From positions 4,278,001 to 4,342,000 of the forward strand of contig OX597839.1 of NCBI GenBank assembly GCA_951406725.2: a stretch of DNA of 64,000 nt. The letters run 5' to 3'. How positions within the stretch are numbered: position 1 is the stretch's first letter; each line of letters opens with the position of its first letter. Shown piece after piece: positions 6,037 through 64,000 of this stretch. Below the pieces are notes generated by a model, which saw only the letters and a list, made by a program, of their open reading frames with translations, made no database searches and was not told the DNA's origin. The position numbers were made by a program, and so were the translations under genes. The stretch is from Octopus vulgaris (lineage: Eukaryota).

Positions 6037-7746
6037 CAAACATACACACGCACACTCATATAAACAAAGCATGCATGCATACATATATACACACATGCAT
6101 GCATACATACTCCACGCAATGTGTCAGTGATCTAAACAGTTTAGCTATATTTATACAGCTAATTTAATATATTTATTCAGTCAGTTCTATTTCGCCAATC
6201 AGCGTTCATTGTCCTGCTCGGAGTAGTACACTTTACGTCCTTGTCTGATACACTTTCAGCAGAATTGTTTAAAACAGATATAAGAAGAAACTTCGATGGA
6301 ATAATGGAATTGTATTATGGTTCTACAGCGTTCTTCTACCTTTCATTTTTCCCTGTATGCATTGCAATTTTGGATTATTTTTTTTCAGCATTGTGGTTGT
6401 GGCGGAGTAATGGGCATTATTTTCCTTCGTTCATTTCATCCATTTAGCCATTCTTTCTTCTCTCCGACTTCTTTTGTTTGATCATTATACATGGTTTTCG
6501 AAAAAAAAAATCCTTGTTTGTTTGTTTCTTTCATTCAGTCTTTTTTTCCTTTCGTTCGTTCATTCTGTCGTCTGCTTTCTCGTTCGTTCCTTCGTTCATT
6601 GTGTCGTCTTTTCTATTCGTTCGTTCGTTCGGTTAATATTTCTTTTCCTTTTTCATCATTCTGTCCGACTGCCATCTTTGATTTTTTTTGGGGTTTTTTT
6701 TTTCTTCTACTCTGTTCTGTTCCCTCGTTTGTTCATGTTTGCTCCATCGTCTGCCATCTTTAATGATCATTTTTAATCTATTAACCTTTCTGAAAAAAAA
6801 AAAAGAAAAAGAAAAAGAAAAAAATCACCGTTTCTGTCATCCTTTTTCTCTCTAGCTCCGCCAATTCTTTCCTGTATTTTCTCTTCTTTCAATCTTCTTT
6901 TTTTTTAAAAATTTTATTTCTGAATATCTCTTTTCTTTCAATCATTTTTTAAAAACTTCATTCCAATTCTCTTTCTCCTTTGCACGCATACAATATACCT
7001 CACCCTCTCTCCCTCTTTTTCTCTCTCTGTCTATCTCACACAACTACCAGCACAACTATATCTCTCTCCCTTTTACTCACTTTTTTCTTCATTTCATTAC
7101 AATTTTATTGTCTTCCATATTTTTTCTTCAACTGATTGTATTTGTCGTCTGCCTTAATGATCGTTTTCAATCTGTCAAACTTTATTGTTTTCTTCTTAGC
7201 CTATCATCCTTTTCCGCCATTATTAGTTTTTGTGTGTGGATAAAGAGGGCTCGTACGATGTTTTTGTCATTTTTCGTGAAGGAATGGTTCAAATCTTCTA
7301 CAACGGTATTTGAACTCGAAATGCGAATTGATAAAAACAAAATACAGCAAGGCATTGAGTATAGCGGGCTATAATTTCTATCATAGAGTTTCTAAGTAAT
7401 CATCCGACTATCTACAAATAGCAGCTGGATCTAATTCAAATCATATCTTTAAAAAGCAAGGACACATGGGATAGTCCAGTCTATAGAATGTCATAACAAA
7501 TACAGATGAAATAGTCACTAACGGAAAGTTTTTGATTATAGGCTTTTCGTTCAGAAACAACATCAATGCTTATATCAATGAAACAATGAAGACACATCTA
7601 CGTAGCCGTACGACCTGCTAAATACAGCAACTAAATACCACTTAAATTACAATCTGCAACGTTAAAAAGAAAAGAAGAAATTTTGGATTCAGCAGAATGG
7701 AATATACACTCTCCAAAAAATGGGATGGTCATGACTGGAATGTCAT

Positions 7747-13844: not shown

Positions 13845-14630
13845 AAATTTTGGCACAAGGCGAGCAATTTCTGGGGAGGAGACAAGTAATTTACTTTGTG
13901 GCGGAATTTGAACTCAGAATGTAAAGGACAGACAAAATGCCGCTAAGCATTTTGTCCGACATGCTTACGATTCTGTCAGCTCGCCGCCTTTATTAAGGTG
14001 ACAATGTTGATTTCAAATTTTGGCACAGAGCCAGCAATTTCGAGGTAGAGGTTAGTCGATTATATCGACCCCAGTACTGAACTAGTACTTATTTTACTGA
14101 CACCGAAAAGATGAAAGGCGAAGTCTACCTCGGCAGAATTTCAACTCAGACGGTCGAAATAACGCTAAGCATTTTCCCGACGTGCTAACGGTTCTTTTCT
14201 CCTTTAGGCATAAGGCCCGAAATTTTAGGGGAGGGGGCTAGTCGCTGTATCGACCCTAGTACGCAACTGGTACTTAATTTAGGCGGCGAGCTAGCAGGAA
14301 CGTTAGCACGCCGGGCGAAATGTTTTGCAGTATTTCGTCTGCCGTTACGTTCTGAGTTCAAATTCCGCCGAGGTCGACTTTCCCTTTAATCCTTTCGGGG
14401 TCGATAAATTAAGTACCAGTTACACACTGGGGTCGGTGTAATCGACTTAATACGTTCATCTGTCCTTGTTTGTCCCTTCTGTGTTTAGCACCTTGTGGGT
14501 AGTAAAGAAATAGGTACTTAATTTATCAACTCTGAAAGGATGAAAGGCAAAGTCGACCTCGGCGGAATTTGAACTCAGAACATAAAGCATTTCGCCCGGC
14601 GTGCTTAACAATTCTGTTAGCTCGCCGCTT
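13845..14630 (-). mobile_element. Cluster of three minus-strand SINE family A copies (alternative tail)
   Basis: Repeated ggcacaagg / cggcggaatttgaactcagaa / gctaagcattt / gctcgccgc blocks. Confidence 0.75.
14282..14512 (+). mobile_element. Full-length SINE A (Tx1-like tail) nested in an antisense SINE A, 13-bp TSD
   Basis: ggtacttaattta at 14269-14281 and 14513-14525 flanks ggcggcgagc...gtaaagaaata. Confidence 0.9.
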
Positions 14631-34685: not shown

Positions 34686-35070
34686 GGCGGCGAGTTGGCA
34701 GAATCGTTAGTACGTCGGGTAAAATACTAAGTGGTATTTCGTCCGTGTTATGTTCTGAGTTCAAATCCCGCCGAGGTCGACTTTGCCTTTCATCCTTTCG
34801 GGGTCGATAAATTAAGTACCAGTTACGCACTGGGGTCAATGTAATCGAGTTAATCCGTTTGTCTGTCCTTGTTTGTCCTTTCTGTGTTTAGCCCCTTGTG
34901 GGTAGTAAAGAAATAGGTATTTCGTCCGTGCTATGTTCTGAGTTCAAATTCCGCCGAGGTCGACTTTACCTTTTATCCTTTCGGGGCTGGTAAAATAAGT
35001 ACCAGTTGAATACTGGGGTCAATGTAATCGACTTAGCGCCACTCCCGTAATTGCGGGCCTTGTGCTTTAG
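34686..35070 (+). mobile_element. SINE A dimer
   Basis: Full unit, then restart at ggtatttcg (34916), ending in the alternative tail gcgggccttgtgc. Confidence 0.9.
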
Positions 35071-35564
35071 AAGCTTGCTTCCCAACTACATGACTCCGAG
35101 TTCAGTCCCACCTCGAGCAAGTATTTATATCTATGGATAACGAAAAGACCCTGTGGGTAGATAGTAAACTGGATCTAGAAAGAGTGCTTTTGAATGTATG
35201 AGAACTTAGTAGATAGATTGATAGGTAGATAGATAAATATACATACATAGAGACAGAGAGGCAGACAGTTAGATAGATAGATAGATAAAGAGATAGAGTG
35301 ATTGAAGGGTAGAAAAATTGATTGATTGATAAATAGAAAGACAGAGTCTTAGATAAATAGAGTGATAAATTGATTGATTGATAGATAGATGTTTAGATGG
35401 AAAGATAGATAGAAGGGTAGAGAGATAGAGGGATAGAAACAGGAATAAATATATAGATAAAAAACATATGTATAAACACACACACATATTGATAGATACA
35501 TAACTAGATAGAGTTCTGTATTAGTTAATAGATAGACAGAAAGATAGAAAGATTGATTGATTTA

Positions 35565-36911: not shown

Positions 36912-37222
36912 AGCAAAGATGGTGTGTGCGAGAGACGAAACCACTTTGAGCATGATCCTGTAAATCGTAAAAGAGAGAGAGGGAGTAATTTGCTCTCATG
37001 TGTTCATTTCCTCCCTCCCTGCCTGAGGTTATCGTGGTCTTTTCTGTAGACTTTTCTTTCCACGGATGAACTAAAATTTCTTTCTGTGATACACGATCCC
37101 TTTTGATCGAAATTTTACATTTGTTTCCTTCTTTTTCTTTTCCCTTTTCCATCTTCGAAAAGAAAAGCTCTACATTTATATTTGTCCCCTCTGTGACCAG
37201 CCCTGTGTGGCCAATAAAGAAA

Positions 37223-37225: not shown

Positions 37226-37300
<75 letters not shown>

Positions 37301-37785
37301 GCCCTTCCTCGGCCTCTTTTTGATCCACGACTGCAGTTCGGTCATGGAGACGAGCTGCGGGAAAGCGTGCCTCACAAACGGCGACCACACCTGTTCACCG
37401 TCGTCTACATAGAGCCAGAGATGCCGCAGTCTCAGCGCGTGTCTGCGCATCATCAACCACGGCATGCCCAGCCCTCCTTTTAACGGGTGTTGACAGCAAA
37501 TGGATCGCCTGACCATCGGGACGCATCCTTTCCACAAGAAGCGAAAGAGGATGCGTTGTAGTTTGGTGATGGTAGGGTCGGGACAAGGTACGACGGTCAG
37601 GCGGTAGTAGATGACGGACGCGATGTACGTGTTCGCCACCTCCGCTCGACCTTTTAGGGACAGTTTCCTCTCGGCCCATTGCCGGGCGAGAGTGACCACC
37701 CTACTCGTTATCTCGTTCCAGTTCTTCTCCACTTGGAGGTCCGGACCAAACCAGACCCCGAGCAACTCAACCGGGCCGTCGGTCC
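37301..37785 (-). pseudogene. Inverted ORF2 segment (RT thumb/post-RT region)
   Basis: ORF 37292..37765: LGVWFGPDLQVEKNW...RKLSLKGRAEVANTYIASVIYY...PLKGGLGMP. Confidence 0.85.
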
Positions 37786-37888
37786 AGCGACGGCCCGGTT
37801 GAGTTGCTCGGGGTCTGGTTTGGTCCGGACCTCCAAGTGGAGAAGAACTGGAACGAGATAACGAGTAGGGTGGTCACTCTCGCCCGGC
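37681..37888. repeat. Perfect ~101-bp inverted repeat (fold-back), 6-nt loop gtccag
   Basis: 37681-37781 is the reverse complement of 37788-37888. Confidence 0.95.
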
Positions 37889-38601
37889 GAATGGCACCGC
37901 GAGTGTCGCGTTGCTCTCAAGCAACTCTGCCGTCCTGGGTCGACCTTAAGTGACTTCAACACAACCAAAGCATTCTATAGGGGTTTAGTGGAGGGGAGGT
38001 ACGACGACGAGCTCGGGGCGAACCTGGACGTCGACGAGGAGTACCTGACCCGCCTGTTCAGGACGACTTTCGGGCCAGGGCCCATGGACAACTTCCAGAG
38101 ATCCCTGGCCTGGCAGTGCTACCGAGAAGCGCTACCCGTTCGGGATAAGCTCTACAGACACGGCTCGAGAAACACGGGGCCGACCTGCCCGAGATGCGGT
38201 CAGAGCGACGAAACCGTTCTGCACGCACTCGTTCAGTGTCCAACAATTTCCGACCTGTGGGCTTATGTCGAACAACTGCTGTCACGTGTGGGACGAGTCG
38301 GTTTATCAGCTGAGTCTATCGTCAATATTGTCACGCCTCCTTCCTTCAAACGGGAAGGAAGAGCTATTTTCATCATCCTTGTGGCTATGGCGAAAGAATG
38401 TATCTGGTGGACGCGTCTGAAAGGATTGGAGACAAACACTTTCCTCTCTGGTCAATCTCTCATCAACTTCTTCAAGTACCACTTGAAAAGGAAAGTGAGT
38501 AGAGAGGCAAGTTTTGTCTAGCGAATGTTTTAAAAAGATGGGTGAATGTAGCAAGAATGGCACGTATGAATGACGAAGCCACCTTGAGCATAGTCCTATG
38601 A
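37886..38601 (+). pseudogene. ORF2 C-terminus with zf-RVT-type CCHC knuckle; probable frameshift near 38500
   Basis: GEWHRECRVALKQL...AWQCYREALPVRDKL...CPRCGQSDETVLHALVQC...LW. Confidence 0.85.
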
Positions 38602-38974
38602 ACCCAGAAATCGAAAACAGAGAGTTGCTTATTTGCAAAAAAAAAAAAAAAAGAAATATAAAATGTGACTTCATTGACCGAGGTTACCGTGGTCTTTTCC
38701 GTAGGCTTTTCTTTCCACGGGTAAACCTCACCTGTCCTCCCCTTTACACTTCATATTGACATTTCTGTGATAACGATCCCTATTGATCAATTTTTTTTTC
38801 CTCTCCCCCTTTTTTTAACCCCCCTTTTTTTGTCCTCTTTCTCTCCTTTTACGATCCCTTTTGATCGAAACTCCCCCTTCCTTTTTTTTTTTTTTTTTTA
38901 AACCTTCAAAAGAAAAGCTCTACCTTGTAATTTGTTCTATCTGTGTGCAGCCCTGTGTGGCTAATAAAGAAACA

Positions 38975-47921: not shown

Positions 47922-48476
47922 GGCGAGCTGGGAGAAACGTTAGCATGTCGGCGATATGCTTAGCGGTATTTCGTCTGACTACGAGCTGATTTCAAATTCC
48001 ACCAAGGTCGACTTTGCCTTTTATCCTTTCGGAGTCGATAAATTAAGTACCAGTTACGCACTGGGGTCGATATAATCGACTTAATCCGTTTGACTTTCCT
48101 TGTTTGTCCCCTCTGTGTTTAGCCCCTTGTGGGTAGTAAAGAAATAGGTATTTCGTCTGCCGTTACGTTGTGAGTTCAAATTCCGCCGAGGTCGACTTTA
48201 CCTTTCATCTTTTCGGGGTCGATTAAATAAGTACCAGTTACGCACTGGGGTCGATATAATCGACTTAATCCGTTTGTCTTTCCTTGTTTGTCCCCTCTGT
48301 GTTTAGCCCCTTGTGGGTAGTAAAGAAATAGGTATTTCGTCTGCCGTTACGTTCTGAGTTCAAATTCCGCCAAGGTCGACTTTACCTTTCATCCTTTCGG
48401 GGTCGATAAATTAACGCACTTGTCTGTCCTTGTTCGTCCCCTCTGTGTTTAGCCCCTTGTGGGTAGAAAAGAAATA
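47922..48476 (+). mobile_element. SINE A trimer
   Basis: Restarts at ggtatttcg at 48147 and 48331 (184-bp spacing). Confidence 0.92.
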
Positions 48477-49520: not shown

Positions 49521-50121
49521 ATCAGTTTGAAAACGATTTACGTCTCTCATCCAAATAATTTATGACAAAAATTATGGGCTCTGATTTTTTTTCCGTCCTT
49601 TGACCAAGTGATAACCAGTAAAATAAACAGCAATCTATCATCCATAGAGTAAGGAAGAAAGAAAGAAGGAAGCAGAGAAAAAGTGATTGAAAATGAGGAA
49701 TCGATTGCAGTACCGAACTGTTTATTTATTGACACTACAACGATAAAAAAGTATAAGTGATCTGTGTAGGTATTGAAGCCGGAGATCCAGAACAAATACC
49801 GTAATGCATTCTATGCAGCGTTGTAACCATTCTGCCAGCTTATTGCTTTTGTATTGCAATGCTCTGTTTAAACACCGTAATCGATATATTCATTTTATAC
49901 AAGGATATATTTCGAAGCTTGTAGTAAAAACCAATTTTGACGTTATAGATTCTATTGTTAACCGATAGAACATGTGACTGCAATACCATTCAACTGATGA
50001 GGGAAGCTTGGCTTGCTAAAAATAGCAGCTAATCCTTTTCTGCTGGTATTCTTCCATAACATGCTACTTAACGTATAGCCTGGACCCTGACAGATGATAC
50101 TACCCCAGGTTAGAATAGATC

Positions 50122-50523
50122 GGCGAGCTGGCAGAAACGTTAGCACGCTGAGCGAGATGCTTAGCGGTATTTCGTCTGCCGTTACGTTCTAAGTTCAAAT
50201 TCCGCCGAGGTCGTCTTTGCCTTTCATCCTTTCGGGGTCGATAAATTAAGTACCAGTTACGCACTGGGGTCGATATAATCGACTTAATCCGTTTGTCTGT
50301 CCTCTCTGTGTTTAGCCCCTTGTAGGTAGTAAAGAAATAGGTATTTCGTCTGCTGTTACGTTCTGAATTCAAATTCCGCCGAGGTCGACTTTGCCTTTCA
50401 TCCTTTCGGGGGTCGATTAAATAAGTACCAGTTACGCACTGGGGCCGATGTATCGACTTAATACCTATGTCTGTCCTTGTTTGTCCTCTCTGTGTTTAGC
50501 CCCTTGTGGGTAGTAAAGAAATA
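50122..50523 (+). mobile_element. SINE A dimer with 14-bp TSD
   Basis: ggttagaatagatc at 50108-50121 and 50524-50537; internal restart ggtatttcg at 50340. Confidence 0.92.
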
Positions 50524-50724
50524 GGTTAGAATAGATCTGAGGACAATAGCGGTTAAGAAGTAGTTTCACATTCCTCTAGGCCCTGCGGACCCCGAACCGG
50601 GGGCTCACCACCAGATATCGTTTAAATATTCAAATTCTACTCTTTTTAACAGCATCAACACCACCAACAACAACGACGATGTAAAAGTTCTGACCACTAA
50701 TATGTATACTTACTCTTACTCTTT

Positions 50725-52213: not shown

Positions 52214-52790
52214 GGCGGCGAGCTGGCAGAAACGTTAGCGCGCCGGGCGAAATGCTTAGCGGTATTTCGTCTGCCGTTACGTTCTGAGTTCAAATTCCGC
52301 CGAGGTCGACTTTGCCTTTCATCCTTTCGGGGTCGATTGAATAAGTACCAGTTACGCACTGGGTTCGATGTAATCGACTTAATCCGTTTGTCTGTCCTTC
52401 TTTGTCCCCTCTGTGTTTAATCCCTTGTGGGTAGTAAAGAAATAGGTATTTCGTCTGCCTCTACGTTCTGAGTTCAAAATCCGCCGACGCCGACTTTGCC
52501 TTTCATTCTTTCGGGGTCGATTAAATAAGAACCAGTTACGCACTGGGGTCGATATAATCGACTTAATCAGTGTGTCTGTCCTTGTTTGTCCTCTCTGTGT
52601 TTAACCCCTTGTATGTAGTAAAGAAATAGTTATTTCGTCTGTCTTTACGTTCTGAGTTCAAATTTCACCGAGGTCGATTTTACCTTTCATCCTTTCGGGG
52701 TCAATAAATTAAGTACCAGTCGTGTACTGGGGTCGATCTAATCAACTGCCCCACCCCGGAATTTCGGGCCTTGTGCTTAGAATAGAAAAG
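52214..52790 (+). mobile_element. SINE A trimer ending in the alternative tail
   Basis: Restarts at 52445 and 52629; last unit ends ggaatttcgggccttgtgc. Confidence 0.92.
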
Positions 52791-59900: not shown

Positions 59901-60076
59901 GAATAAAAATATGGAGAAAATGAAAGTAAACTGGTCGCTTAAGGATATCCCACTTACCAACAAACTCGAGGTCATGAGACTCATTAGACATGCAACAAAA
60001 GAAGTGATTCGACAGGTTAGTTGAATTAGAGGTTAAAATAACTATCTAAAAGATACCATTACACTACCGGTATATT

Positions 60077-60515
60077 TGTTTCTTTATTGCCCACAAGGGG
60101 CTAAACATAGAGGGGACAAACAAGGACAGACAAACGGATTAAGTCGATTACATCGACCCCAATGCGTAACTGGTACTTAATTTATCGACCCCGAAAGGAT
60201 GAAAGGCAAAGTCGACCTCGGCGGAATTTGAACTCAGAACGTAACGACAGACGCAATACCTATTTCTTTATTACCCACAAGGGGCTAAACACAGAGCGGA
60301 CAAACAAGGACAGACATAGGTATTAAGTCGATTACATCGACCCCAGTGCGTAACTGGTACTTAATTTATCGAGCCCGAAAGGATGAAAGGCAAAGTCGAC
60401 CTCGGCGGAATTTGAACTCACAACGTAACGCAGACGAAATAACGCTAAGCATTTCGCCCGGCGTGATCACGATTCTGCCAACTTGCCGCAATACCGCTAA
60501 GCATTTCGCCCGGTG
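60077..60515 (-). mobile_element. SINE A nested in SINE A, with both TSDs preserved
   Basis: Outer TSD taccggtatatt (60065-60076, 60516-60527); inner TSD cgcaatacc (60252-60260, 60487-60495). Confidence 0.9.
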
Positions 60516-60659
60516 TACCGGTATATTACCTATGTTTAACCATGGCCATGCATTTGCAAGTATATTATGCTCATAGATTATAGGCAAAGACAAGGAAAAG
60601 GATGAGTTTATCAAGAATCAAAATGTACACACACACACACACACACACTAACACACATA

Positions 60660-61657: not shown

Positions 61658-61746
<89 letters not shown>

Positions 61747-61749
<3 letters not shown>

Positions 61750-61957
61750 TAGTTCTATTTTTATAGCGTGCTTTCACTTCACTACCGAGCGCAGCTCTGT
61801 GTGCCTTGGGTATGTGCTGTGATTTGTTGTGATGCTCTGATGGTTATTGTATGGAAAGTGTTCTGCGTAGGATGTGTGCAGTGCCTAGTAGTGCAATTTT
61901 CTGTATGTTATATGTGTTTGTAAGTCCTGGTGTTTTTGTTATGTATTTGTCTGAATA

Positions 61958-61963
<6 letters not shown>
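61747..61963 (-). mobile_element. R4/Dong-like retrotransposon, short 3' fragment in (TAA)n
   Basis: Near-identical to 62111-62328. Confidence 0.9.
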
Positions 61964-61992
<29 letters not shown>

Positions 61993-62006
61993 TATTATTA
62001 TTATTA

Positions 62007-64000
<1,994 letters not shown>

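What the first reader, a model, noticed from the sequence alone, without database searches (positions are those of the whole stretch)
60065..60527. SINE A inserts into a fixed site of its own head, explaining its tandem arrays
Seen: a full-length copy sits inside another copy at gcttagc|ggtatt. It is flanked by a 9-bp TSD (minus strand ggtattgcg) that carries the host's private variant on both sides, and the host has its own 12-bp TSD. Four other loci (34686, 47922, 50122, 52214) are dimers or trimers whose extra units restart at the same g(g/t)tatttcg position right after the tail. Other insertion sites start ggtact (14513) and ggttag (50524). Inference: a sequence-preferring endonuclease makes the SINE its own safe-harbour target, and headless junctions arise by homology at the 5' end.
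Basis: partly seen in the sequence, partly recalled or inferred. Interest (0 to 1): 0.75.

Follow-up and report, generated by a model that had tools for sequence, protein, structure and literature searches.

The report
Octopus SINE nests inside itself
About a third of the youngest copies of a very common short jumping element in this genome end at one exact base inside another copy of the same family, likely because that base carries the short motif its borrowed enzyme prefers, with the doubled front end likely lost by recombination and longer rows also growing by local duplication.

Summary
Real and genome-wide. The nested copy at 60065-60527 is as described. Of 101,064 exact young tails in the genome, 36,676 (36%) run into base 48 of another copy. 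At ordinary sites the element makes 14-18 bp duplications whose start reads Y^GGTAT, the motif at base 48. Its tail matches L1/Tx1-type LINE tails. In arrays ending in an older subfamily the upstream unit is younger in 34 of 37, and last units are as diverse as free copies, so no master multimer. A visible duplication survives in 3 of 115 sense arrays but 12 of 15 antisense insertions, so seamless joints need homology; their heads are host/insert mosaics. Corrections: about 19% of junctions, most in arrays of four or more, look like local duplications; 'safe harbour' is too strong; a second hotspot lies at base 15; no LINE tail was found at base 48. The scan noted this system earlier on other DNA of this genome. 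New variant of Tx1-type targeting.

The parts
60516..60527 (-). Host target-site duplication, 5' copy (12 bp)
60496..60515 (-). 5'-truncated head of the host SINE, up to consensus base 47
60487..60495 (-). Insert duplication, 5' copy (6-9 bp; last 3 nt also match the insert's start)
60261..60486 (-). Inserted near-full-length young SINE; its own base-48 site carries a G49T change
60252..60260 (-). Insert duplication, 3' copy = host bases 48-56 with the rare base-54 variant
60077..60251 (-). Rest of the host SINE with its tail (the 'caa' tail variant)
60065..60076 (-). Host target-site duplication, 3' copy
34686..35080 (+). Seamless dimer: young unit to 34915, older-tailed unit from 34916 (end approximate)
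47922..48476 (+). Seamless trimer, junctions at 48147 and 48331
50108..50536 (+). Seamless dimer 50121-50523, junction 50340, 13-bp duplication at 50108-50120 and 50524-50536
52214..52790 (+). Seamless trimer, junctions 52445 and 52629, last unit of the older B subfamily (end approximate)
14269..14524 (+). Full-length copy 14282-14512 inserted antisense into another SINE copy, 12-bp duplication at 14269-14280 and 14513-14524
14054..14200 (-). Older-tailed copy running into base 15 of another copy (second hotspot)
37862..38972 (+). 3' end of a young L1/Tx1-type LINE whose last ~45 bp resemble the SINE tail; followed by a (TATC)n tract

Best explanation
This short element sits, in tens of thousands of places, at base 48 of other copies of its own family, likely because the L1/Tx1-type LINE enzyme it is inferred to borrow prefers a short Y^GGTAT motif that the SINE head carries there, and the doubled head is likely removed by homologous joining. 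Shown: the junction counts, the motif at non-SINE targets, 14-18 bp duplications, visible nested cases, older and diverse hosts, mosaic heads, local duplication in long arrays. Inferred: target-primed reverse transcription at the nick; the cDNA, being homologous to the host head just upstream, pairs with it (or the two adjacent heads recombine later), leaving one head, a complete new unit and a headless host body; once two units abut, unequal exchange or slippage lengthens some arrays.
For: 36,676 of 101,064 exact young tails run into base 48; 55,494 into GGTAT of any kind. In a junction-enriched sample 180 of 199 sense continuations start at base 48. 34 anchored duplications of tag/taa-tailed copies (32 non-SINE, 1 antisense SINE, 1 probable deleted SINE site): upstream copy has G,G,T,A,T in 21,22,26,25,21 of 34 and a pyrimidine at -1 in 28 of 34, p=2e-4. 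115 exact head-duplication-head matches genome-wide; of 26 distinct loci read, 21 show a 7-20 bp duplicated start and 14 of those share a non-consensus base (upper bound). An antisense GGTAC site present once per copy holds 920 insertions, 12 of 15 read with a visible duplication, against 3 of 115 sense arrays (p=7e-12). Upstream unit less diverged than a B-type last unit in 34 of 37. B-type last units as diverse as free B copies, 0.119 vs 0.113, closest pair 0.037. Heads of these arrays are about 34% insert-like over bases 1-24, 64% over 25-47, 72% at base 43, 94% at base 63. Tail alignment with LINE tails; intact 1149-aa endonuclease/RT/zf-RVT ORFs.
Against: No autonomous LINE with this target was found: one pattern search for a LINE-type tail at base 48 gave 1 hit, a SINE; the young LINE family examined sits in (TATC)n. 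A 5-nt preference does not account for everything: base 48 is used about 6.5-fold more than expected after allowing for SINE context (rough), of which local duplication explains about a fifth. Base 19 (74% insert-like) does not fit the head gradient. Upstream versus last unit is not different when both are young (25 vs 21 of 51). B-type last units are less CpG-decayed than free B copies (0.28 vs 0.43). Most sampled arrays come from the first 4 Mb of one contig and were chosen for having a junction.
Confidence: 0.7

Rival explanations
1. Seamless arrays were made at the RNA/cDNA level and inserted as one piece: read-through transcripts of existing dimers, or the reverse transcriptase jumping from an RNA cut or stalled at base 48 to the 3' end of a second SINE RNA.
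For: Whole arrays are flanked by one duplication (26 of 54 young-ended and 11 of 30 B-ended arrays); 97% of arrays are seamless; heads carry the young-only G43 allele in 8 of 37 B-ended arrays vs 0 of 30 free B copies; some last units are short stubs (26-61 aligned bases in 6 of 22 'other' arrays), one with a 22-bp duplication around head, unit and stub (L057); base 48 follows the loop of a 12-bp RNA hairpin.
Against: Heads are not wholly insert-type (more diverged than young heads at bases 1-24, p=0.026, and 25-47, p=0.004); last units are older and unclustered; DNA-level insertion at the same base is directly visible.
Confidence: 0.17
2. Arrays come mainly from local tandem duplication or unequal crossing-over of one inserted copy.
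For: Adjacent young units fall below the 5th percentile of unrelated pairs in 6 of 41 dimer, 11 of 35 trimer and 28 of 43 longer-array junctions; two or more rare variants shared in 29 of 119 such junctions vs about 0.1% at random.
Against: 84 of 203 junctions join different subfamilies or tail types, and only 6 of these 84 share two or more rare variants; after a first unit whose own site reads C at base 48, the junction still starts GGTAT in 22 of 27 and with C in 1. It explains growth of arrays (about 19% of junctions), not their start.
Confidence: 0.08
3. All arrays descend from one or a few multimeric master copies (an Alu-like dimeric SINE).
For: Fixed junction and single flanking duplication.
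Against: Last units belong to at least three tail types, with pairwise distances 0.12-0.16 equal to or near those of free copies and no near-identical pairs.
Confidence: 0.05

Closest known systems
SINEU-3 with Tx1-Mar LINEs, crocodilians (PMC4494074; section 14 read whole, other passages)
   Same: A SINE carried by a Tx1-type LINE into a fixed site of another mobile element, with a ~16-bp duplication and tandem copies from sequential insertion.
   Different: There the target is an unrelated Mariner, 90% of SINEU-3 copies are at it, and tandem copies stay whole with a duplication between them. Here the target is the SINE's own head, 36% of young tails, and the junctions lose the duplicate head.
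R1/R2 elements with flanking 28S sequence in their RNA, Drosophila (PMC2718515; passages)
   Same: cDNA annealing to homologous upstream target gives precise 5' junctions; 3' flanking target sequence in the RNA is proposed to anneal at the nick.
   Different: There the homology is co-transcribed rDNA of an autonomous element; here it is the passenger's own head.
Zepp LINE, green algae (PMC3446292; passages)
   Same: Clusters of nested copies of one family.
   Different: Autonomous LINE, one large cluster per chromosome; here tens of thousands of dispersed 2-7 unit arrays of a SINE.
SINE multimers and SINE-derived satellites (Dip in jerboa; sSat in squamates; PMC10702118, passages)
   Same: Frequent SINE tandems; later homogenisation of longer arrays.
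   Different: Dip multimers are described as full-length units and sSat are attributed mainly to unequal recombination; a fixed internal self-target is not reported in the passages read.
Octopus OR1/OR2 CORE-type SINEs (name recalled; OR2 listed as an Octopus vulgaris CORE SINE in PMC5804259, passage)
   Same: Recalled resemblance: shared tRNA-like head and core with alternative tails.
   Different: Identity not tested; no reference sequence was available.

Membership tests
SINE | Short, non-coding, high-copy, flanked by variable target-site duplications | tested here: met
   231-bp consensus; about 135 cores per Mb in 290 kb of unselected sequence; duplications at 77 of 116 young monomers
SINE | 3' tail shared with a LINE | tested here: met
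   28 invariant columns in an alignment of two SINE and four LINE tails; 3 of 13 loci with a LINE-type tail have ORF2 matches directly upstream
tRNA-derived SINE | Head homologous to a tRNA, with A and B boxes | tested here: inconclusive
   No ARAGORN gene, no Rfam tRNA hit at E<=10; box-like motifs recognised from recall only
Octopus OR1/OR2 CORE-SINE | CORE domain and identity to the published consensus | not tested
   No reference sequence in hand
Tx1-clade partner LINE | ORF2 with APE endonuclease, RT and C-terminal zinc domain | tested here: met
   Exo_endo_phos, RVT_1, zf-RVT; best solved-structure match is LINE-1 ORF2
Tx1-clade partner LINE | Phylogenetic placement in Tx1 rather than L1 | not tested
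   No named references; 11 homologues carried no names
Tx1-clade partner LINE | Sequence-specific target shared with the SINE | tested here: inconclusive
   Young family ends in (TATC)n; no LINE-type tail at base 48 with one narrow pattern; one LINE-type tail at base 15 (L259)
SINEU-3-like strictly targeted SINE | About 90% of copies at one target | tested here: not met
   36% of exact young tails match the base-48 pattern
Dimeric SINE (Alu-like) | Dimer amplifies as a unit from a master, with a fixed second unit | tested here: not met
   Second units vary in subfamily, are older and unclustered

The most novel reading that the evidence does not exclude
RNA-guided self-targeting that feeds itself: a copy that once landed in a SINE head is transcribed a few bases into the host, so its RNA ends in the host's own sequence, pairs with the nick at the same base of any other copy and makes more such sources. 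Each tail variant would carry its own address (tag/taa tails to base 48, caa tails to base 15), and alleles such as C48 and T49 would be escape variants. Support: GGTA follows 38 of 94 tag/taa tails but 4 of 53 caa/cag tails at non-SINE sites, and base 48 is used several-fold more than the 5-nt motif predicts. Against: the -1 pyrimidine cannot come from the RNA, and mismatches between duplication copies show no clear RNA bias (6 vs 3).
Probability: 0.3. Interest if true: 0.8.

Novelty: new variant of a known kind. Interest (0 to 1): 0.57.

Why it matters
It gives tens of thousands of natural integration events into a target that is homologous to the incoming RNA, with a built-in control (the antisense site, no homology). 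That makes the open question of how non-LTR 5' junctions are closed testable from genomes alone. It also shows a SINE supplying a large share of its own landing sites while rebuilding a complete promoter-bearing head at each seamless insertion (inferred), and it warns that headless units and chimeric heads will split or mis-date SINE families in octopus repeat libraries.

Tried and rejected
Dong/R4-like LINE at 62211-62993 as partner: its tail ends in (AAT)n and is unlike the SINE tail; rejected. Search for a LINE-type tail directly at base 48: 1 hit, a SINE. Test for RNA-templated mismatches at the start of duplications: 6 vs 3 in 34, no signal. Age of flanking duplications of B-ended arrays vs free B copies: 0.081 vs 0.130 mismatches per base on 11 and 13 cases, inconclusive. 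(77,744 tails) was not used for fractions because its last-letter filter drops the commonest junction. First estimates of free B heads included base-15 junctions mistaken for heads; 16 such elements were removed. RNA runs: no RNA holder listed, so RNA ends were not examined. Real tRNA genes were not checked for insertions. ARAGORN and Rfam found no tRNA. Literature: searches found no description of this self-insertion; in the 2026 O. vulgaris repeat annotation (PMC13282606, part 1 of 3 read plus a term search) 'nested' and 'target' occur 0 times; its supplements, Repbase and the original octopus SINE papers were not seen and may describe it.

Full report
Setting. The window lies in a 2.80-Gb animal genome, probably an octopus (inference from size, repeat content and a recalled SINE resemblance). 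The element is a 231-bp SINE; I built consensus sequences for the young form (A, 217 copies) and an older form with another tail (B, 121 copies) from fetched DNA. Base numbers below refer to consensus A.

Observation. The split is at base 48. All 6 junctions in the four other arrays restart at base 48. The host's base-54 variant is certain only on the downstream side, because on the upstream side it overlaps a 3-nt match to the insert's first bases.

Genome-wide counts (exact patterns, whole counts). Young tails 101,064; followed by GGTAT 55,494; by the base-48 sequence 36,676, or 36%; by GGTA plus a non-T base 6,267. With a shorter tail anchor, base 48 has 38,496 junctions and the antisense GGTAC site, present once per copy, has 920: a ratio of 42. 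Head-duplication-head structures matching a strict pattern number 115.

Target preference. For 34 tag/taa-tailed copies with an anchored duplication, the upstream (pre-existing) copy begins G,G,T,A,T in 21,22,26,25,21 cases and is preceded by a pyrimidine in 28. Lengths are 14-18 bp with one of 22; the method cannot see less than 14. Base 48 of the head matches this motif fully. The -1 pyrimidine lies outside the duplication and differs from the RNA's own base, which points to the endonuclease (inference). The tail variant matters: GGTA follows 38 of 94 tag/taa tails and 4 of 53 caa/cag tails at non-SINE sites, and caa tails favour a second head site at base 15 (16 elements; B tails and one LINE-type tail also land there). 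Either different LINE partners or RNA-end pairing could cause this. Rough per-site rates from a 290-kb unselected sample: base 48 is used 19-33 times more than other GGTAT sites, the antisense site 3-5 times more than other GGTA-V sites, leaving about 6.5-fold beyond the 5-nt motif.

Partner. The last ~45 bp of the tail align with tails of L1/Tx1-type LINEs. A young family has intact 1149-aa ORF2s with endonuclease, RT and zf-RVT domains and ends in (TATC)n tracts. Closer tails occur in 13 loci, 3 with ORF2 matches upstream. No LINE-type tail was found at base 48, so the exact partner is not identified and Tx1 membership was not tested by phylogeny.

Are arrays nested insertions? The sample is about 2 Mb, mostly the start of one contig and enriched for junctions. 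Of 26 distinct double-head loci read, 21 have a duplicated start of 7-20 bp and 14 share a non-consensus base on both sides (upper bound, and 2 of the 5 misses look positive by eye). Of 203 junctions, 84 join a young unit to a B or other last unit; 6 of the 84 share two or more rare variants. The upstream unit is less diverged than a B last unit in 34 of 37 arrays, than an 'other' last unit in 10 vs 5 of 16, and no different when both are young, 25 vs 21 of 51. B last units are as diverse as free B copies with no near-identical pairs. A first unit that has C at base 48 is still followed by GGTAT in 22 of 27 cases, so the junction is not a copy of the first unit. A master multimer is rejected.

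Local duplication. Adjacent young units are closer than 95% of unrelated pairs in 6 of 41 dimer, 11 of 35 trimer and 28 of 43 longer-array junctions, about 19% of all junctions after allowing for chance.

Why headless? A visible duplication with two heads is found in 3 of 115 unselected sense arrays but in 12 of 15 antisense insertions. Homology is therefore needed for the seamless form. The surviving head is a mosaic: the young-only G43 allele is in 8 of 37 B-ended arrays, 0 of 30 free B and 37 of 124 free A copies; the insert-like share is about 34% over bases 1-24, 64% over 25-47, 72% at base 43 and 94% at base 63, with base 19 discordant at 74%. This fits a crossover somewhere in the ~60 bp of shared head, during integration or afterwards; the data cannot tell which. 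It does not fit pure annealing of the host overhang (head all host) or pure template jumping (head all insert), though a share of RNA-level dimers is not excluded.

Comparison. It works like SINEU-3/Tx1-Mar targeting (PMC4494074, section 14 and passages) with the target being its own family and weaker specificity, and like R1/R2 annealed 5' junctions (PMC2718515, passages). Zepp nests in itself but is an autonomous LINE in one cluster per chromosome (PMC3446292, passages). SINE multimers are known (PMC10702118, passages). Nine searches found no account of this case; Repbase, supplements and the original octopus SINE papers were not seen. Earlier notes of this scan report the same system on other pieces of this genome, including LINEs at one head site; I read them after forming my view and could confirm only one LINE-type tail, at base 15.

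Verdict. Real, abundant and mechanistically informative; a new variant of Tx1-type targeting. Nested insertion with homologous head loss 0.70, RNA-level dimers 0.17, duplication as main origin 0.08, master multimer 0.05. Interest 0.57.

Noticed in passing
16 elements; L259; L144, L156, L046; window 14054-14200 (-): Second insertion hotspot at base 15 of the SINE head, used by caa-tailed copies, B-tailed copies and one LINE-type tail.
   Followed up: partly
37 of 124 young monomers; window 60261-60486; L006, L007, L010: Young variants whose own base-48 site is altered (G43 with C48, or T49), which would make them poor targets while they still insert at base 48 of others.
   Followed up: partly
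window 52215-52310 (+): Base 48 is the first base after the 4-nt loop of a predicted 12-bp RNA hairpin (z = -2.0).
   Followed up: no
window 37862-38972 (+), 37181-37222 (+), 37295-37873 (-); L201-L240: Very young L1/Tx1-type LINE with many intact 1149-aa ORF2s, nearly always ending in (TATC)n and often stacked in tandem; an inverted fragment sits beside it in the window.
   Followed up: partly
window 61700-64000 (-): Several 3' ends of a LINE ending in (AAT)n tracts, with a 261-aa C-terminal frame at 62211-62993; Dong/R4-like by recall, only a weak zf-RVT hit.
   Followed up: no
L251-L263: Several families with the SINE-like LINE tail but no ORF2 match within 1.5 kb upstream (10 of 13); some appear stacked head to tail (L256, L262).
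   Followed up: no
L280, L281, L291: Three insertions at what looks like the same site of another dispersed repeat, with little or no duplication; at L280 the target resembles the SINE's first bases.
   Followed up: no
L087-L090, L071-L072: Tandem repeats of the 55-65 bp head-plus-duplication segment, showing that double-head structures are unstable.
   Followed up: no
free B copies: The older B subfamily has duplications starting with an A/T-rich motif and often sits in (ATT)n, a different target from the young form.
   Followed up: no
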